The notes under the pieces are model-generated. The model was not told the DNA's origin and did no database searches. It saw nothing but the letters and a program-made list of their open reading frames with translations. A stretch of 64,000 nucleotides of DNA, taken from NCBI RefSeq assembly GCF_041248615.1, contig NZ_CP158425.1; one strand, 5' to 3'. Made by a program: the position numbers and the translations under genes. Within the stretch, counting starts at the first letter, position 1; each line of letters begins with the position of its first letter. Source of the DNA: Escherichia coli (lineage in GTDB: Bacteria; Pseudomonadota; Gammaproteobacteria; Enterobacterales; Enterobacteriaceae). Positions 56,388 through 64,000 of this stretch are shown here, in pieces.

Positions 56388-57368
56388 ATGAGCCTGGAGA
56401 AACGTATGAGTTATGACGATTTGCCCTATTTTCGTGACCAGATTCTGGAACGTATCGACTCGCTTAAGTGTTTTCTTTCGAACACCCCCCCGCTGATGGC
56501 AAACCTGATGACTGTCTCCACCGTATCTCGAACAGAAGAGCGACTGAAGCAGGTTAAACCCATCAGGGTTAGTGTTAAAGACGATGCTTCGGTTGAGGAA
56601 ATTATTCAGGCACTTACTGACATCTGTGTGGATGACATAGAGTCATTAAGTCATGATTCCACCAAAGTGACCACTAAATACCCGGGTCTTATCATTGTCC
56701 CAGAAAGAGCAGATCTTCTCGAAAGCTTGATCACATCTATAAATGAAGCAAAAAATGATTTTGCTGCGGCAATGAGGCGTATCGATAATAAAAAGAATGT
56801 CCGTTTTGATAAAGTGCACAAGAAGCTCCCGGGCCTTGTCGCTATGCACTCAACAAGAAATGTCCTTTTCATCAAGTCCCAGCTTAAAAAAGTTACTTTT
56901 TCATGGCGGCTAAACCGAAACCAGGAAGTTAAAACAGCAGAGCAACTTGTGAGTTTGTTGGAGCGCAGGAGAGCCTCAGAAGTAAAAAATGTAGCAACTA
57001 CCAATTTGAATGTCGTGTCTAATATCGATAAGGCTTTACACCGTCTTGAATTTCACCCACTGAAGCAGGGCGAATCTTATCGCCTTTGTCGAACTAACTC
57101 TTTCCCTGTTCCGATTGCTCACATTTTTGCATTTAGGCCTGAAGGGCAGGAACGAAACGGGAATAAATATGCTGAGACTGATTATTCAGTAGTAAAAGCA
57201 TCCTTGCCCATTTTCGCAGCAGGCAACATACCTCAATTAAAAACGCTCTCTGACTGGGCTCCTGAAAACAGCCAGGGCCCGTCCAACCAACGGAAGCTGA
57301 GCCTGAAATATACAGAACTCGTGCCGGGGGCTGAGCTGGGCATTTTCATTGTCAGCCCCGAAAATTAA
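56388..57368 (+). CDS. Hypothetical protein
   Basis: 326-aa ORF. Confidence 0.4.
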   Translation: MSLEKRMSYDDLPYFRDQILERIDSLKCFLSNTPPLMANLMTVSTVSRTEERLKQVKPIRVSVKDDASVEEIIQALTDICVDDIESLSHDSTKVTTKYPGLIIVPERADLLESLITSINEAKNDFAAAMRRIDNKKNVRFDKVHKKLPGLVAMHSTRNVLFIKSQLKKVTFSWRLNRNQEVKTAEQLVSLLERRRASEVKNVATTNLNVVSNIDKALHRLEFHPLKQGESYRLCRTNSFPVPIAHIFAFRPEGQERNGNKYAETDYSVVKASLPIFAAGNIPQLKTLSDWAPENSQGPSNQRKLSLKYTELVPGAELGIFIVSPEN

Positions 57369-57377
57369 GGAACAACA

Positions 57378-58283
57378 ATGCAATGGATTTCCACAGCCAG
57401 CCAGAAAATCGATGAGCGTCTCTATCGTGTCTGCGTCTGGGTAAAAAAATATCACGCTGATGCGATTAACCGCGTTGTGCTTACCGTTGATCTAAGTAAA
57501 GCCCGACATGACCCTGACGAGGACCAGGTAAGAGCAGAGCTGCTGTGCGGCCATTATTTTTTGCTTCGTAAGGAAAACGCTTCGAACTCTGCGCCTGACG
57601 ATCAAAAGTTTGCTTTCCTGCCTGACGGGCGCAATCTGTGTTGGCAGACCGCAACCCCGGTGCTTCAGCATCTCCTGCTCAATAAAAACGTTCCTGAGTC
57701 GCTGAGGTTGCTTACGGACTACATACATATGCGTCTGGCCAGGCTGACAATGGTACCAATGTCCGGAACCATCATGAACGAGGCTCTGCTGGACAGCATC
57801 AGCTGGGTTAAGGTGGATTTGACCTACTTCTGGCAGTATGAACAGCTCAGCTCTCATCTGGGACCCATCCAGATAACCCACAAGGCACTAGTACGCTTCG
57901 GGCATCTGGCAAAGAATGATGAAAACTCCAGTGCCATAAGAATCCTGCGTCAGCGTCTGTCTTCAGAATTCTTACAAGAATTTCAGATGGCTGAGGATGA
58001 GCTAAAGCGCAAACAGTCGTTGATGGGCACCATGGACGTGAAAATGCTGTTTCATGCTCATTACCCCAGCCAGAAGATGCTGGTGGCTCGATATAAAAAT
58101 GGTTGGGTAATGGTGGATTGTTTTCTGTTTCATCATACCAAACCTAAGAAAAAAGCAAAAAACAAAACTACTGTGGCTAAGCCTCAACTTAAAGAGACTA
58201 AAAGAGAAGGGAGTGAAAATGGAACTGGGCATTATGGTGTGCATCGTGTTGTTACTCTCCGTGGCGGCGGCGTGGATCAGTAA
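57378..58283 (+). CDS. Hypothetical protein
   Basis: 301-aa ORF 9 nt after the previous stop. Confidence 0.4.
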   Translation: MQWISTASQKIDERLYRVCVWVKKYHADAINRVVLTVDLSKARHDPDEDQVRAELLCGHYFLLRKENASNSAPDDQKFAFLPDGRNLCWQTATPVLQHLLLNKNVPESLRLLTDYIHMRLARLTMVPMSGTIMNEALLDSISWVKVDLTYFWQYEQLSSHLGPIQITHKALVRFGHLAKNDENSSAIRILRQRLSSEFLQEFQMAEDELKRKQSLMGTMDVKMLFHAHYPSQKMLVARYKNGWVMVDCFLFHHTKPKKKAKNKTTVAKPQLKETKREGSENGTGHYGVHRVVTLRGGGVDQ

Positions 58284-58563
58284 TAAGACAGTTGATTTGC
58301 TCGAAAGATTCTATTTCAAGCGTCCGCTGAGCATGGAGTACGCGGCATGGCTACGTGTAATGTGTGCAGGCTTGTTATTGGTTTTTATTCAGGTTGCTCC
58401 ACAATTTACACTTCTGTATACCCTTAAACTTGTCACGCTTATTAATCTTGGAATCCAGACAATGAAATTAAATGGCGTGTACAAATATAAAAGAACGGGA
58501 ATTTTGCCTCCGGGAGGGGCACTCTCTAATCTCACCAGACTTAACCCGTTCAAGAAAAAATAA
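58213..58563 (+). CDS. Hypothetical small membrane protein (overlaps upstream gene; true start may be internal)
   Basis: 116 aa with two TM segments. Confidence 0.3.
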   Translation: MKMELGIMVCIVLLLSVAAAWISNKTVDLLERFYFKRPLSMEYAAWLRVMCAGLLLVFIQVAPQFTLLYTLKLVTLINLGIQTMKLNGVYKYKRTGILPPGGALSNLTRLNPFKKK

Positions 58564-58584
58564 AGTTATGCGCCCGTGAGGGCG

Positions 58585-59775
58585 CTATTCATCAAAGGCA
58601 TTTCGCATAAGCTTGATCATTGCTTTTTTACCAGCTTCAATATTACGAATGTAGCGCATAACCATTTCTTCATTCGACCAGTTCCCCATTTCCATAATCT
58701 GTGGTAGCGAGTAACCTTCAATATTTAGCTGTATCGCTCCGCCTACACGAACGCTGTGCCCTGTCCAGTAACGAGTTTTAGTCTCATTTGGATAAAGCTC
58801 ATTCCACATCTCTTTAAATGCTCGTAAAAGGGAATTTTTGCTGAGCATACCGGCATCGTCCACAGTGTCTTCTTCATCTTCATCTTCATCGTTCAGAAGA
58901 CTTTGCTTAGCACGATAGGGTAGGTTATGCCTTTTAAGAAGTTCAGATAGCTCATTCCCCTTACTCCGAAGCTTCCAGCCGGGTGGCATATAGCCTGTAT
59001 CATGGAAATTTACGGCCTGGAAAAGGAATTCATCCGGATGACTGTGCTGATCCATTTTCACGAGGTTCATCAATCTCAAGAGGCAGTTAGTTAACTGACG
59101 TGTCAGCCGGTAGGTAAGAAGTGTACTAATGTTCGTTTTTGTACGGTATACCGTCAGGTTAAATTCACCGGTCATACTATCCAGAGACAGATCTTTCAGA
59201 CGTATACGTCGAATTTCGGATGAACGGAGCAGTGTTTCAAAGCCTGTCCAGATCAGGCACAGGTCACGAAGTTTACGAACTGAGTTTGTAGTACTGCGTA
59301 ACTTTATCAGAGCCTTGAGATCGCCAATAAGAAAGGGAGTTGCCTGTTTAGTCGTCTTTCGCTTCCGGGCTTCCGATTGTTTTAAGGCTTCCAGCATGTA
59401 CCATGCTTCAGACGTAATAATCCCGGGCAGGTTAAGCCCTTTTTTATGGATACTATTTAAGGCCTGAAGACAGCTGTTTATGCTGCTTCGTGACAATTTG
59501 CCTTCAAGATGCCCCATAAACGCAAGCAGAGCGTCCTCAGACACGGGGAGCGAACTTACTGGCCAGTCTGTATGCAACCGGGCATTCGCCAGATACCATT
59601 CGTTCCATACTCGTAGCCAGTGCAGATAGGTTTTAGCAGTGTTGTATCTCAGATGGGAAAAGTAACGGATCAAGCGTGAAAGCTGTTTATCATGGTTGCC
59701 GAACGTTTCCAGCTGCTGATGCAATTCGCTTTCCGAAAACTGTCTGATCACTGATTGATTCTTCATCCTGCTCAC
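58585..59775 (-). CDS. Tyrosine site-specific recombinase (integrase/resolvase family)
   Basis: 396 aa; C-terminal catalytic pattern (HSVRVGGA... nucleophile Tyr in MVMRYIRNI); SAM-like N-terminal domain; GCGCCC gtga GGGCGC hairpin at its 3' end (58570-58585). Confidence 0.75.
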   Translation of the reverse strand: MSRMKNQSVIRQFSESELHQQLETFGNHDKQLSRLIRYFSHLRYNTAKTYLHWLRVWNEWYLANARLHTDWPVSSLPVSEDALLAFMGHLEGKLSRSSINSCLQALNSIHKKGLNLPGIITSEAWYMLEALKQSEARKRKTTKQATPFLIGDLKALIKLRSTTNSVRKLRDLCLIWTGFETLLRSSEIRRIRLKDLSLDSMTGEFNLTVYRTKTNISTLLTYRLTRQLTNCLLRLMNLVKMDQHSHPDEFLFQAVNFHDTGYMPPGWKLRSKGNELSELLKRHNLPYRAKQSLLNDEDEDEEDTVDDAGMLSKNSLLRAFKEMWNELYPNETKTRYWTGHSVRVGGAIQLNIEGYSLPQIMEMGNWSNEEMVMRYIRNIEAGKKAMIKLMRNAFDE

Positions 59776-59930
59776 CGGGATACACTGGTTTTAATTACAG
59801 GTCATTTTAGCACTCATGTACCTGGTTATGAACAGGGTGGAAACAACGAAAAAGGTTGTGAAATCGTTAGGCTTAAGTGAAAAATGATATTAAGATTATC
59901 CTTGGCCAGTTGAGGCCTGTCTAAAGAAGG

Positions 59931-60149
59931 TTGATTATGTCTGACACAAAGCAGTCTTATTTAATGAAATTCCGTAAGTGTAGTTCGTTCGAAACGCTCG
60001 AAAAAGTATTTGAAAGGTTATGTGAAAAAAACTCGGGTGTCGCCTCTCTTGAAATTTCTGGTGCTTATGATCATCGTAAAGCCGAACTGACAATGAAAAA
60101 GTTATATGACAAAGTTCCTGCGAGTGTGTGGACCTTTGTTCGCGAGTAA
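59931..60149 (+). CDS. Hypothetical small protein
   Basis: 72-aa ORF divergent from the recombinase; GCCCC tttc GGGGC hairpin downstream (60203-60216). Confidence 0.3.
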   Translation: MIMSDTKQSYLMKFRKCSSFETLEKVFERLCEKNSGVASLEISGAYDHRKAELTMKKLYDKVPASVWTFVRE

Positions 60150-60509
60150 TTATTAATATTGGCACAACAAAAAGACTGTGCCTGGATTTGAAAATAGTTT
60201 ATGCCCCTTTCGGGGCTAAAGGCATTGTAATAGCCTGTCTTTTAAAGTTGTTTATTAAGTTCGGAGAAAAACTTTAATCATAAGCCAAGCCCACTGCTAA
60301 ATACATCCGATATTCTCCTTCATTTTATTAGAAGTGATAAAAGTTACTTTACCTAAACTTCTCTCTCAATATTTGTAAGGCTCTCATTTGATTTTTGTCA
60401 AACATTAATCTGGAAGACGGAAAAATCATTTCTTTTAATACGTTTTACAGAAATCCTCCTCCGTTATTTCGGATATAGTTTGAATCATTATCAAAAACGG
60501 GGTGCAGCC

Positions 60510-61592
60510 ATGCGTAAGAGTTATACATTTGGTATTCCATTTGGACTCCAGCGTGAATCAGGACTCTTTTTAGATATTACAGAGGTCAGCCGGGGTATTG
60601 ACTGTAACTGCATCTGCCCCGCTTGCAAAACTGATCTGTTAGCAAAGCAGGGGGAGGTCAAGCTTTGGCATTTCTCACACAGTACAGCTGTAGCCGGTGA
60701 CTGTGATGGTCTGATGGAAGCCATCCGGGGAAAGATTATTGAAGTCATCAACGAGCACCAGGTTCTTGGTTTCCCAAATCTTCTCGCTGGCGACGATGGT
60801 GGGCCGGTTTCACTGAATGAGGTTAGTGGAAGCGGCAGTATGTTCGGAGGCACAGCTGATCTGTTCGTAAAGGTTAATGATTTATGTGTGGCCGTCTTTC
60901 TGGACAGGGATCGCAGCATTTCAGAGAAGTTAACCTTTGACCATCTTCATCCTTCCGAAAGAGTTGCCGCATTGCGTATCGATCTTCCTGATATTGAATA
61001 TGAAATCAGTCAGGTGCAGCTCGGGCGACGTAAAACAACATACAGTGAGTGCATTGAAAGCCTGATCATTGATGAGACCAGTTCCCGGGAATGGCTATAT
61101 CATCCATTAATGCATGAACTTGAATCTGAACCTCTTCAGGAGTATCGGGGACGGGAGCCTTCAGAGGAAGGGCCTCTTCTTCAGCGCCTTGCTGACTGTA
61201 AGATGAAATTGCCTGATATCCTTCCGGGCAGTCATAACGCGCTAGTCAGGTTACAGCAGGATACGATTGTATGTCTGTGTCGGTTAACGGTTCGGGCTTA
61301 TGACATCGCTCAGACCGATGAATTTCCTTTGTTCCTTCGCTATTTCAGGTTGCACTGCCTGGAAAACAGCGAACATGTCAGTTACGAAAGACTGATCTGC
61401 TGGCAGGAAATGATTTCAAAAACCCAGGAAGGCCAGTCCTTGACACAAAACGAACTTGAATATCTTCATGAGATTGTCCGCATCGCCTTTTACAATCACC
61501 GGCTTAACAATGTCAGTATTTCAGATGTTAAAAACCATGACACTGGAAAGAAGAGCGGCAGGGTAGAGTCACAAAACTATTCACTTTTATAA
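60510..61592 (+). CDS. Hypothetical protein with N-terminal zinc-ribbon-like motif
   Basis: CNCICPACK...HFSH near the N-terminus; ORF track starts at 60480. Confidence 0.4.
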   Translation: MRKSYTFGIPFGLQRESGLFLDITEVSRGIDCNCICPACKTDLLAKQGEVKLWHFSHSTAVAGDCDGLMEAIRGKIIEVINEHQVLGFPNLLAGDDGGPVSLNEVSGSGSMFGGTADLFVKVNDLCVAVFLDRDRSISEKLTFDHLHPSERVAALRIDLPDIEYEISQVQLGRRKTTYSECIESLIIDETSSREWLYHPLMHELESEPLQEYRGREPSEEGPLLQRLADCKMKLPDILPGSHNALVRLQQDTIVCLCRLTVRAYDIAQTDEFPLFLRYFRLHCLENSEHVSYERLICWQEMISKTQEGQSLTQNELEYLHEIVRIAFYNHRLNNVSISDVKNHDTGKKSGRVESQNYSLL

Positions 61593-61758
61593 ATAACTTG
61601 GGCTTTGCGCATTAAACCCTTGCCGCAGGCGGTGTACCGCATATCCGGCACAGACAGTCAGTTTTTTCTGGCAGCTTAAATTTGACACTGCTTAATATAG
61701 TGATTCATTAAACAGGTTCAGTATGCTGCCAGAACGTTTTAGTCGTAATGGGCGTCCG

Positions 61759-62741
61759 TTAGTTTTCAACTAACTGAACGACGACCAGCCTGCCGCCTTC
61801 CTCCTTTGACAGAACAAACTGAGCGTTATTCGTCAGTTCAATTTTTTCCCCAATGGCAATCTGTCGTTTATCCGGTAATGACATAAGCCCATTTATGCCT
61901 TCATTTACTAACCACCACTGATCGTTATGGAAAACAAAATACCCAACTCGTTTCCTTTGTGCATCGGTTGTGCGCTCATTTGGCGCAATGAGGCGATTCA
62001 CATGCCACGCATAGATTGACTGCCCGCTCCACACCATCAACCGGTGGTCGTCAGGACGATAACTGCCTTCCTTTCGGGATGAATATAAATTTAGAACCGG
62101 TAATTTACCCTTGTATGGCGTACCGCAGTAGGGACAAACCGGCTTTGTCTTACCTGAGAAAACGTACCATTTCTGTTCACACGCCTTGTTCTGGCAGGGC
62201 TGTATCAGATCGACTGTTTTAACCAGGGCACTTTCCCACTCATCGGCGGTCGGGCGTTTATTGGCATCGTGTAAGCCATCAATAAAGGCGCGTTCAAACA
62301 AAGGCGTCAAATAAGGGCCCATGATGGTGTAAGGAATTTTCTCCGGGTCAGCCCAGGGCAGTGAAAAGGAGGATAGCTGACTGACTTTGACTGCATTGCT
62401 TTTGTCTGTCGGATGTTCAATGAAGAGTGCCTTCTCACCCATAGATAAGGTCTCATCACGTACTTCATCCGACATGTCATGTATTTTTCCGCCACGTAGC
62501 GGATGACGGAAGAACAGATACATGTAGATAAGCACCGACAGCGCATGACGGTCAGTAGAAATGCTTGGCAATACGCGGTTCGGATCCTCTTTGGAAAGAT
62601 GGCTGGTTTTCACCACTTCCGGAGCGATAAAATCCGGGGTGCCCACGACGTCGGGAGGATACTTTCCAGGGACAACCAGGCCGTCTACGTCAATGATGCA
62701 GGCATGTCCCATTTCTGGATCGATAAGCACGTTTTTATAGG
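61759..62741 (-). pseudogene. Protein-kinase-like gene (Hanks-type C-lobe motifs) whose 5' end is interrupted by the IS30-family element
   Basis: Catalytic-loop/DFG/APE-like motifs in order (NVLID, IIDVDG, GTPDFIAPE); no Gly-loop or VAIK N-lobe; the first ~36 codons of the tracked ORF (62742-62850) run into the IS end. Confidence 0.45.
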
Positions 62742-63845
62742 CTGAATTTACAATCCAAGTGCAACAAAAAAAGAAGTACTCATCAACTAGAATATAATTT
62801 TGTTTCCACACAAAAACCATTTCCAAATGATGAGTACTTCCTACCGACATCTTACAATAAACGAGCGAGAAAAGATAATGATTTTACTCGCACAGGGCAA
62901 AAAACAAGCAGAAATTGCCAAAGCACTGGGACGTAGCTCCAGCACCATTTCTCGCGAGCTGAAACGACACGCTCTAGAAAGCTACAGTGCAACGAACGCA
63001 CAAAACAGCTATTTGAAGCATCGTCAAAATAGCAAAGCACAGCGCAAATTAGAGCAGCCTGAATATTTCAATTTGGTGCAAGAAAAGTTTCTGACAGAAA
63101 ACTGGTCGCCCGAACAAATCAGCGCACGATTAAAATTGGAAAAATCTGAATTATCCATTAGTTATTCAACCATTTATCGTGGTATTTATTCAGGGTTGTT
63201 TGATATAGGCGAACGCAAAGCCAGTCGCAAACTGCGCCACAAAGGCAAAACACGGCATACAAAAAATCATCATGAAAAACGTGGCAAAATTCAGATATCC
63301 AACCATTTGAACGACCGTCCCATTTCGGCGCAAAATCGCAGTCGCTTTGGACATTGGGAAGCCGATACCGTACTGGGTAAAGCGGGTGGAGCTTGTTTGC
63401 TGACGCTGACGGAACGCAAAAGTCGTTTTGAGTTGGTGAAGAAAATTCCTGCCAAAAAAGCCGAAGCAGTCCAAAAAGCCATGATTGAATTGCTGGATTC
63501 ACATATATTGCGGTCAATTACGCCAGACCGTGGTAAAGAATTTGCCCAACATCGTTTGGTAACAGAAGCACTGGGTGTAGAATTTTACTTCCCCGAGCCG
63601 CATCAACCGTGGACACGGGGAACGAATGAAAATACAAATGGGTTACTTCGTGAATACTTTCCGAAGCACCAAGACATCAATCAGTGGAGCGAAGTTGATA
63701 TTCAACAGGTGATCAATAAACTGAATTTACGACCACGTAAATGTTTAGGTTGGAAAACACCTTATGAAGTTTACTTCAAAAAATCGTTGCACTTGGTTTG
63801 ACAATTCAAGATACAAATTATAAATACTCTCAAGTGTATATTCAG
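62742..63845. mobile_element. IS30-family insertion sequence (about 1.1 kb); boundaries approximate
   Basis: Contains the IS30-family transposase gene; imperfect terminal inverted repeats beginning CTGAAT at about 62742 and, inverted, ending at about 63845. Confidence 0.5.
62827..63801 (+). CDS. IS30-family DDE transposase
   Basis: N-terminal HTH (TINEREKIMILLAQGKKQAEIAKALGRSSSTISRELKRH); DDE-region signatures (GHWEADTV, WTRGTNENTNGLLREYFPK). Confidence 0.85.
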   Translation: MMSTSYRHLTINEREKIMILLAQGKKQAEIAKALGRSSSTISRELKRHALESYSATNAQNSYLKHRQNSKAQRKLEQPEYFNLVQEKFLTENWSPEQISARLKLEKSELSISYSTIYRGIYSGLFDIGERKASRKLRHKGKTRHTKNHHEKRGKIQISNHLNDRPISAQNRSRFGHWEADTVLGKAGGACLLTLTERKSRFELVKKIPAKKAEAVQKAMIELLDSHILRSITPDRGKEFAQHRLVTEALGVEFYFPEPHQPWTRGTNENTNGLLREYFPKHQDINQWSEVDIQQVINKLNLRPRKCLGWKTPYEVYFKKSLHLV

Positions 63846-64000
63846 TATGGGATTGCGCAATGATTGCCTAATAAAATTTCTGAAATATTTCTGTATCGCA
63901 TAATTTTTTATATCAGATAAATTGTACTGGATTTCTTAAAAAATTGCAGTATAATTGCCGCAATTATCCCACCGTTTATTTTTTGAGTAGTTTCTCATGA

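What the first reader, a model, noticed from the sequence alone, without database searches (positions are those of the whole stretch)
61759..63845. Kinase-like gene interrupted near its 5' end by an IS30-family element
The minus-strand ORF carries Hanks-type kinase C-lobe signatures (NVLID, IIDVDG, GTPDFIAPE) but no N-lobe, and its first ~36 codons are IS-derived. Beyond the IS (63847-63900, minus strand) an ATG followed by about 18 codons reads in frame with the kinase-like segment if the IS is removed, so the insertion may have split a short native N-terminus; alternatively the native gene is itself a kinase C-lobe-only protein. Either a recently inactivated Ser/Thr-kinase effector or an unusual kinase-fold fragment.
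Basis: partly seen in the sequence, partly recalled or inferred. Interest (0 to 1): 0.5.

Follow-up and report, generated by a model that had tools for sequence, protein, structure and literature searches.

The report
mcr-1 transposon truncating a plasmid kinase gene
This is the well-documented spot on IncHI2 resistance plasmids where the colistin-resistance transposon (ISApl1-mcr-1) landed in a Ser/Thr kinase gene of the tellurite-resistance region, leaving a dead 3' remnant; it is real but already described.

Summary
The window is the first 64 kb of the E. coli IncHI2 plasmid p14408_M1 (LT599829).

- **The IS.** It is ISApl1, 1070 bp, at 62741-63810. It does not run to 63845.
- **Right of the IS.** The sequence at 63811-64000 is the interior of the mcr-1 transposon Tn6330, with the mcr-1 ATG at 63997. 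It is not a native kinase N-terminus.
- **The intact gene.** In pAPEC-O1-R it encodes a 499-aa protein: a Hanks-type kinase, a four-Cys zinc ribbon and an FHA-like domain. It is the last gene of a vWA/TerY, PP2C and kinase "TerY-P triad".
- **The break.** The insertion falls after codon 173, so the N-lobe and the catalytic HSD Asp171 are lost. It is therefore not "near the 5' end", and the gene is not C-lobe-only.
- **History.** Sister plasmid pCFS3273-1 keeps the ancestral simple Tn6330 insertion, with an AG target duplication and the 5' kinase fragment. In this plasmid a 1465-bp deletion then removed that fragment and the PP2C catalytic domain.

The same junction occurs in 16 PLSDB plasmids, and the insertion into this kinase gene is published (PMC5708242, PMC8466100).

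Verdict: already known, a pseudogene remnant, low interest.

The parts
61759..62740 (-). 3' remnant (pseudogene) of the TerY-P triad Ser/Thr kinase gene: last base of codon 173, codons 174-499 and the stop. The intact allele is WP_001284313.1 (499 aa).
   Evidence: 99.8% identical to pAPEC-O1-R up to L002 6141, where the match stops. RefSeq marks it 'incomplete; missing N-terminus'. Codon phase.
62224..62739 (-). Retained part of the kinase domain (residues 174-345): N176, IIDVDG (DFG-equivalent), GTPDFIAPE (APE motif) and the C-lobe helices. The catalytic H169-S170-D171 and the whole N-lobe are missing.
   Evidence: Pfam Pkinase match over residues 151-269 of the intact protein, E 9e-10. Alignment to PKA. 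Invariant residues. Foldseek hits to ePKs.
62125..62196 (-). Four-Cys zinc ribbon (C355, C360, C375, C378 of the intact protein).
   Evidence: All four Cys are invariant in 46 homologues. TerY-P kinases are described as fused to a C-terminal zinc ribbon (PMC11090510).
61762..62106 (-). C-terminal FHA-like beta-sandwich domain (residues ~385-499).
62741..63810 (+). ISApl1 (IS30 family), 1070 bp, the upstream copy of the Tn6330-derived mcr-1 unit. Imperfect terminal inverted repeats (~25-27 nt by eye) lie at 62741-62767 and 63784-63810.
   Evidence: A second 100% identical 1070-bp copy lies at 65882-66951 (-) of the record. Inverted repeats. Annotated ISApl1.
62827..63801 (+). ISApl1 transposase CDS (WP_012478345.1, 324 aa).
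   Evidence: NCBIfam transpos_IS30, E 3.3e-92, 309 bits against a cut-off of 80. RefSeq annotation.
62741..62850 (-). IS-derived 5' part (36 codons plus junction codon) of the chimeric 363-aa ORF 61759-62850, antisense to the start of the transposase gene. Most likely meaningless.
   Evidence: ORF list. Junction mapping. No promoter-like site on the minus strand in 61600-64000.
63811..63996 (+). Tn6330 interior: the spacer between ISApl1 and mcr-1 (mcr-1 upstream region).
   Evidence: It is contiguous with ISApl1 and mcr-1 on ~60-kb plasmids where only the IS-to-mcr-1 part of the query matches (H21-H25).
63997..64000 (+). First four bases of mcr-1.1 (CDS 63997-65622 of the record), cut by the window end.
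   Evidence: RefSeq annotation of NZ_LT599829.1.

Best explanation
The window holds the left junction of the mcr-1 composite transposon Tn6330 (ISApl1-mcr-1-pap2-ISApl1) in the IncHI2 plasmid p14408_M1.

**The target gene.** It is the last gene of a TerY-P triad operon (vWA/TerY - TerD - vWA - TerY-C - PP2C phosphatase - Ser/Thr kinase) next to the tellurite-resistance cluster. The intact product is 499 aa: a Hanks-type kinase domain, a four-Cys zinc ribbon and an FHA-like domain.

**Sequence of events.**
1. Tn6330 inserted after codon 173 with a 2-bp AG target duplication. This is shown by sister plasmid pCFS3273-1.
2. In the lineage of this plasmid, 1465 bp of backbone next to the distal ISApl1 were lost. 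That removed kinase codons 1-173, the intergenic region, and the part of the PP2C gene that encodes its catalytic domain.
3. The distal ISApl1 plus the 3' part of pap2 were then inverted.

The steps themselves are shown. Their order and their ISApl1-mediated mechanism are inferred.

**Result.** What remains at 61759-62740 is a promoterless, kinase-dead remnant lacking the ATP-binding lobe and the catalytic Asp171. It happens to read on into the IS to an ATG. Both enzymes of the triad are destroyed, while mcr-1 is stably anchored.
For: **Identity of the window**
- It is identical to NZ_LT599829.1 positions 1-64000 where tested (H4).

**IS and transposon**
- Annotation.
- IS30-family transposase model.
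- Two identical 1070-bp copies in the plasmid.

**Intact allele and operon**
-.
- The backbone match stops at L002 6141 and resumes at L002 7607.

**Kinase nature**
- Pfam Pkinase, E 9e-10.
- PKA alignment of the catalytic loop, DFG-equivalent and APE motifs.
- H169, S170, D171, N176, D192 and G193 invariant in 46 homologues.
- Foldseek top 50 hits are all protein kinases, E ~1e-7.

**PP2C**
- The catalytic domain lies at residues 284-529, whereas only about the first 238 codons survive.

**Ancestral state**
- A synthetic ISApl1-IRR + AG + backbone junction matched pCFS3273-1 at 100% over 201 nt.
- Its annotation shows both kinase halves and an intact PP2C.
- A 2-bp overlap gives the AG duplication.

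**Deletion**
- The deleted segment and kinase residues 1-173 are absent from the whole 238-kb plasmid by blastn and tblastn.

**Spread and prior reports**
- The same left junction occurs in 16 PLSDB plasmids.
- The identical architecture is present in pSA186_MCR1.
[quoted passage not shown] 2-bp AG direct repeat' (PMC5708242). Tn6330 in the kinase gene of pCFS3273-1 and truncation of PP2C in pSA186_MCR1 are described in PMC8466100.
- TerY-P triad definition: PMC11090510.
Against: - The order and mechanism of the secondary deletion and inversion are inferred from comparing four plasmids, not observed.
- Non-expression of the remnant rests only on a missing consensus promoter and a start codon with no obvious Shine-Dalgarno sequence by eye. 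No transcript data were available.
- The function of the TerY-P triad is itself a prediction in the literature. The PADLOC models gave no TerY-P hit.
- The vWA and TerY-C assignments rest on RefSeq product names.
Confidence: 0.95

Rival explanations
1. First reader, option 1. The IS split off a short native N-terminus (an ATG plus ~18 codons at 63847-63903, minus strand), so only a few codons separate the two halves.
For: A 19-codon ORF (MRYRNISEILLGNHCAIPY) does exist there on the minus strand.
Against: - That DNA is part of Tn6330 and accompanies ISApl1-mcr-1 on ~60-kb plasmids where nothing left of the IS region matches.
- The IS ends at 63810.
- The intact allele has 173 different codons upstream of the break.
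- pCFS3273-1 shows the true 5' half on the far side of Tn6330.
Confidence: 0.01
2. First reader, option 2. The native gene is naturally a kinase C-lobe-only protein.
For: None beyond the appearance of the window ORF.
Against: - There are 4431 homologues at E <= 1e-5. All but one of the 120 best listed are 499-509 aa at 65-86% identity, with an invariant N-lobe and HSD motif.
- The AF2 model aligns to complete ePK domains.
- RefSeq flags the window copy as a partial pseudogene.
Confidence: 0.01
3. The 363-aa chimeric ORF, or an internal start, is expressed. The kinase-dead C-lobe/zinc-ribbon/FHA fragment would then have residual or new activity, for example as a phosphothreonine-binding decoy.
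For: - The ORF is open with an ATG.
- The zinc ribbon and FHA-like domain are intact and fold confidently.
- The junction is conserved in 16 plasmids, although common descent explains that.
Against: - No promoter-like site lies on the minus strand.
- The ATG lies antisense within the transposase 5' end and has no evident ribosome-binding site.
- The operon's upstream genes are cut off from it by about 4.7 kb of transposon.
- A half kinase domain is unlikely to fold.
Confidence: 0.03

Closest known systems
Tn6330 (ISApl1-mcr-1-pap2-ISApl1) inserted in the 'kinase gene' of IncHI2 plasmids, e.g. pCFS3273-1, pSA186_MCR1, pMS8345A and pSE08-00436-1
   Same: - The left junction is identical to the base in 15 other plasmids.
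- pSA186_MCR1 has the same whole architecture.
- The insertion, the AG repeat and the later PP2C/pap2 damage are described in PMC5708242 and PMC8466100.
   Different: Nothing substantive. Compared with the ancestral pCFS3273-1 form, this plasmid has lost 1465 bp of backbone and has the distal ISApl1 plus the 3' part of pap2 inverted.
TerY-P triad (vWA/TerY + PP2C phosphatase + Ser/Thr kinase with C-terminal zinc ribbon; Anantharaman, Iyer & Aravind 2012, as summarised in PMC11090510)
   Same: - The intact backbone has vWA, PP2C_2 and kinase genes in one orientation, ending with a kinase that carries an invariant four-Cys ribbon.
- It sits beside the terZABCDE cluster.
   Different: - In the window only the 3' two-thirds of the kinase gene survives.
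- The kinase also has an FHA-like domain after the ribbon. The summary of TerY-P kinases that I read mentions only the ribbon.
- There is no hit to PADLOC defence models of the Gao-type TerY-P.
E. coli K-12 YegI kinase / PphC (YegK) phosphatase / YegL vWA protein
   Same: - It is a chromosomal vWA-PP2C-kinase gene set.
- YegI is an experimentally shown Ser/Thr kinase (bioRxiv 10.1101/819920).
- It shares weak similarity across the C-lobe up to a CPxC motif (21% identity, E 3e-5).
   Different: [quoted passage not shown] Its C-terminal part shows no similarity to the plasmid kinase, and no FHA-like domain is reported for it. It is only a distant relative.
Hanks-type (eukaryotic-like) Ser/Thr protein kinases such as PKA, PknB/Stk1 and PknG
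   Same: Catalytic loop H-S-D-L-x-x-x-N, a DFG-equivalent D-V-D-G, the G-T-P-D-F-I-A-P-E motif, and a bilobal fold.
   Different: - Very divergent, with only 12-18% identity to solved kinases.
- Pfam matches only residues 151-269.
- The window copy lacks the N-lobe and the catalytic Asp.

Membership tests
IS30 family / ISApl1 | DDE transposase matching the IS30-family model above the curated cut-off | tested here: met
   NF033563 transpos_IS30, E 3.3e-92, 309 bits against a cut-off of 80. The product equals WP_012478345.1, 'ISApl1 family transposase'.
IS30 family / ISApl1 | Defined ends with imperfect terminal inverted repeats, and a unit length of ~1070 bp | tested here: met
   Inverted repeats at 62741-62767 and 63784-63810. 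Two 100% identical 1070-bp copies in the plasmid. The published ISApl1 length of 1070 bp is from my own knowledge.
IS30 family / ISApl1 | 2-bp target-site duplication | tested here: met
   Not visible in this plasmid, because the far flank is deleted. Sister plasmid pCFS3273-1 has AG on both sides of Tn6330 at the same site, as published (PMC5708242).
Tn6330 | Components ISApl1, mcr-1 and pap2, plus a second ISApl1 | tested here: met
   Annotation of NZ_LT599829.1 at 62741-67473. The window holds only the first ISApl1, the spacer and 4 nt of mcr-1.
Tn6330 | Both ISApl1 copies in direct orientation bracketing an intact mcr-1-pap2 cassette | tested here: not met
   In p14408_M1 the distal ISApl1 and the 3' part of pap2 are inverted and pap2 is split. 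It is a rearranged derivative. The canonical form is in pCFS3273-1.
Hanks-type Ser/Thr protein kinase | Catalytic loop HxD...N with the catalytic Asp | tested here: not met
   The intact allele has invariant H169, S170, D171 and N176. The window copy starts at Y174, so the Asp is gone. This feature is met for the family and not met for the window remnant.
Hanks-type Ser/Thr protein kinase | N-lobe with a glycine-rich loop and an ATP-anchoring Lys | tested here: not met
   Present in the intact protein (G23-S-G25...K28 invariant; beta-rich N-lobe in the model). Absent from the window and from the whole plasmid.
Hanks-type Ser/Thr protein kinase | DFG-equivalent and APE motifs, C-lobe fold | tested here: met
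   IIDVDG and GTPDFIAPE are in the window ORF and align to PKA's DFG and GTPDYIAPE. Foldseek hits to ePKs.
TerY-P triad | Adjacent co-oriented genes for a vWA (TerY) protein, a PP2C phosphatase and a Ser/Thr kinase | tested here: met
   Intact backbone in pAPEC-O1-R. PP2C_2, E 1.8e-46. Pkinase. The vWA assignment is by RefSeq product name only.
TerY-P triad | Kinase fused to a C-terminal zinc ribbon | tested here: met
   C355, C360, C375 and C378 invariant in 46 homologues. The family definition is quoted in PMC11090510.
TerY-P anti-phage defence system (Gao et al. 2020 type; kinase-OB fold) | Match to defence-system protein models | tested here: not met
   No TerY-P model hit in PADLOC for the kinase, PP2C, TerY-C or vWA proteins. 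There were only weak generic kinase hits (mad6, PD-T4-6). The C-terminal domain is FHA-like, not an OB fold.
FHA domain | FHA beta-sandwich fold | tested here: met
   [not shown]
FHA domain | Sequence-profile match and conserved phosphothreonine-binding residues | tested here: inconclusive
   Pfam gives no FHA hit at E <= 10. The phosphothreonine-contact residues were not mapped.

The most novel reading that the evidence does not exclude
The surviving zinc-ribbon/FHA-like module is still made, either from the chimeric ORF or from an internal start. It would then act as a phosphothreonine-binding decoy that perturbs Ter or chromosomal YegI/PphC-type signalling.

Alternatively, knocking out the TerY-P kinase and phosphatase is itself selected, because it lowers the cost of carrying mcr-1 IncHI2 plasmids. 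That would explain why this one junction persists across E. coli, Salmonella and Klebsiella.
Probability: 0.04. Interest if true: 0.35.

Novelty: already known. Interest (0 to 1): 0.1.

Why it matters
The locus matters clinically, because it anchors mcr-1 on a widespread family of IncHI2 multiresistance plasmids, but it has been described repeatedly.

Three modest additions come from this analysis:
- **What the disrupted gene is.** It is the Hanks-type kinase of a TerY-P (vWA-PP2C-kinase) triad with a zinc ribbon and an FHA-like tail. None of the scans I ran found a helix-hairpin-helix domain (RefSeq's name) or a sugar-kinase family ('putative sugar kinase' in PMC8466100).
- **What the plasmid has lost.** The catalytic parts of both the kinase and the phosphatase are gone.
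- **How it got there.** The insertion, deletion and inversion can be reconstructed base by base from sister plasmids.

Tried and rejected
- **Kinase-coding sequence to the right of the IS.** Three-frame translation of 63780-64000 on the minus strand shows only stop-rich, AT-rich sequence. Rejected.
- **Was the missing 5' half moved elsewhere?** I fetched the whole 238-kb record and ran blastn and tblastn. There were no hits.
- **Original insertion in PP2C with a leftward deletion.** I considered this as an alternative history. The synthetic-junction search instead found the AG-flanked simple insertion in the kinase gene, so the alternative was dropped and its query was not run.
- **PADLOC search for a TerY-P defence assignment.** Only generic weak kinase hits came back.
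- **NCBIfam on the kinase and PP2C.** Nothing reached a curated cut-off.
- **Promoter and terminator scan of 61600-64000.** It returned fewer sites than the shuffles and none on the minus strand.
- **YegI comparison.** Only a distant similarity was found.

Full report
**What the window is.** The region 61600-64000 matches NZ_LT599829.1 (E. coli NRZ14408 plasmid p14408_M1) at 100% and at the same coordinates (H4). This plasmid is 238 kb, carries an IncHI2A replicon and is conjugative. Window 57000-64000 is byte-identical to the record. The window is therefore the first 64 kb of a published mcr-1 IncHI2 plasmid, cited for example in PMC6498225.

**Checking the observation.** The minus-strand ORF 61759-62850 (363 aa) exists and contains NVLID, IIDVDG and GTPDFIAPE. 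The adjacent plus-strand gene is an IS30-family transposase. It scores 309 bits on NCBIfam transpos_IS30 (E 3.3e-92) against a cut-off of 80, and RefSeq annotates it as ISApl1.

- The plasmid carries two 100% identical 1070-bp copies, at 62741-63810 (+) and 65882-66951 (-).
- The backbone match to an uninterrupted plasmid stops at 62740.
- The imperfect terminal repeats are GCTGAATTTACAATCCAAGTGCAAC... and ...GTTGCACTTGGTTTGACAATTCAAG.

**What lies to the right of the IS.** The segment 63811-64000 is not kinase DNA.
- mcr-1.1 starts at 63997.
- The stretch from ISApl1 through this spacer into mcr-1 is found unchanged on many ~60-kb plasmids, where the kinase part of the query does not match (H21-H25).
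- The minus strand there is stop-rich.

**The intact gene.** In pAPEC-O1-R (NC_009838.1) the uninterrupted gene encodes WP_001284313.1, 499 aa. It is the last gene of a co-oriented set: vWA, TerD, vWA, TerY-C, PP2C phosphatase (545 aa), kinase.

Evidence that it is a protein kinase:
- Pfam finds Pkinase over residues 151-269 (E 9e-10).
- The best PDB sequence hit, PKA, aligns HSDLSYKNVLID with YRDLKPENILLD, DVDG with DFG, and GTPDFIAPE with GTPDYIAPE.
- There are 4431 database homologues at E <= 1e-5. All but one of the 120 best listed are 499-509 aa at 65-86% identity, across gamma- and beta-proteobacteria. The exception, P0048, is a truncated 411-aa form.
- In 46 homologues, G23, G25, K28, H169, S170, D171, N176, D192, G193 and G206-E214 are invariant, as are four Cys (C355, C360, C375, C378).
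- An AF2 model (pLDDT 72.7) hits only protein kinases in the PDB, including BRAF, Aurora A, PAK and S. aureus Stk1/PknB, at E ~1e-7.

The architecture is therefore kinase, zinc ribbon, then an FHA-like domain. This fits the 'TerY-P triad' of a vWA protein, a PP2C phosphatase and a kinase with a C-terminal zinc ribbon (PMC11090510, quoting Anantharaman et al. 2012). The PP2C_2 domain of the neighbouring phosphatase lies at residues 284-529 (E 1.8e-46). The nearest experimentally studied analogue is the E. coli K-12 yegL-pphC-yegI set, but YegI is only distantly similar (21% identity over the C-lobe and CPxC motif).

**Where the break is.** The last retained base is the third position of codon 173. 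The window keeps Y174-N499 and has lost the whole N-lobe and the catalytic H169-S170-D171. This is one third of the way into the gene, not near its 5' end, and the remnant cannot be an active kinase.

**How it came about.** I built a synthetic junction of the last 100 nt of ISApl1, then AG, then the backbone immediately beyond the break. It matched one plasmid at 100% over 201 nt: pCFS3273-1 (NZ_CP026933.2).

That plasmid carries, in order: the kinase 3' fragment, ISApl1, mcr-1, pap2, ISApl1, the kinase 5' fragment (519 bp) and an intact PP2C gene. A 2-bp AG duplication flanks the insertion. This is the ancestral simple Tn6330 insertion, as stated in PMC8466100 and, for a related plasmid, in PMC5708242.

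In p14408_M1 several further changes are visible.
- Backbone positions L002 6142-7606 (1465 bp) are missing. These are kinase codons 1-173, the spacer, and the PP2C gene from about codon 239 to its stop.
- They are absent from the entire plasmid by blastn and tblastn.
- pSE08-00436-1 shares the same right-hand backbone junction, behind a 35-nt ISApl1 IRR remnant. pMS8345A has a larger deletion.
- In p14408_M1 and pSA186_MCR1, the distal ISApl1 plus the 3' part of pap2 are inverted, with a GG duplication in inverted orientation at the pap2 breakpoint.

The order of these secondary events, and the idea that ISApl1 caused them, are inferences from the comparison.

**Function now.** The remnant has no minus-strand promoter-like site and is separated from its operon by about 4.7 kb of transposon. 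Its only ATG lies antisense inside the transposase 5' end. I regard it as a pseudogene, as RefSeq does. Both catalytic components of the triad are gone, while the terZABCDE cluster further on is intact.

**Spread and novelty.**
- The exact left junction occurs in 16 PLSDB plasmids from E. coli, Salmonella and K. pneumoniae.
- The kinase 3' segment occurs in 332 of 5426 complete E. coli genomes, mostly on plasmids.
- Both the insertion into this kinase gene and the later damage to PP2C and pap2 are published.

The finding is real but already known.

**Minor corrections to existing annotation.** None of the sequence and fold scans run here found a helix-hairpin-helix domain (RefSeq's name) or a sugar-kinase family ('putative sugar kinase', PMC8466100). 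The C-terminal FHA-like fold is not mentioned in the TerY-P summary I read.

Noticed in passing
window 63835-63845: An 11-nt sequence (TGTATATTCAG) forms a 91% inverted match to the ISApl1 IRL tip (62742-62752). It lies inside the ISApl1-mcr-1 spacer, 25 nt beyond the true IRR.
   Followed up: partly
[not shown]
   Followed up: partly
L001 8883-10492 (record 65882-67491, outside the window): In p14408_M1 and pSA186_MCR1 the distal ISApl1 plus the 3' part of pap2 are inverted. The pap2 breakpoint shows a GG duplication in inverted orientation. The TT that follows the IRR in pSE08-00436-1 is missing. This looks like an intramolecular ISApl1 event.
   Followed up: partly
window 62733-62740 and L001 9953-9960: The 8 nt to the left of the IRL of the two ISApl1 copies are similar (TTTTATAG versus TTTAATCG). 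BLAST matches to ISApl1 on the ~60-kb plasmids also extend about 9 nt left of the IS. This suggests a target-sequence preference.
   Followed up: no
window 62773-62840: A 31-nt imperfect hairpin (74% complementary, 6-nt loop) lies inside the ISApl1 leader and spans the annotated transposase start at 62827. It may regulate transposase expression.
   Followed up: no
window 58585-61592: Immediately downstream of the kinase remnant lie three backbone genes: a tyrosine recombinase (58585-59766, -), an Hha/YmoA-family regulator (59937-60149, +), and a 360-aa CoiA-like protein with a Cys-rich N-terminus (60510-61592, +). All three are conserved in the IncHI2 backbones examined.
   Followed up: no
protein P0048: A 411-aa database protein is 99% identical to 57% of the kinase. 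It is presumably another truncated or chimeric form from a different rearrangement.
   Followed up: no
literature (PMC8466100): The disrupted gene is described there as a 'putative sugar kinase' whose loss 'potentially silences L-arabinose utilisation'. The sequence, fold and operon context found here point instead to a protein Ser/Thr kinase of a TerY-P triad.
   Followed up: yes
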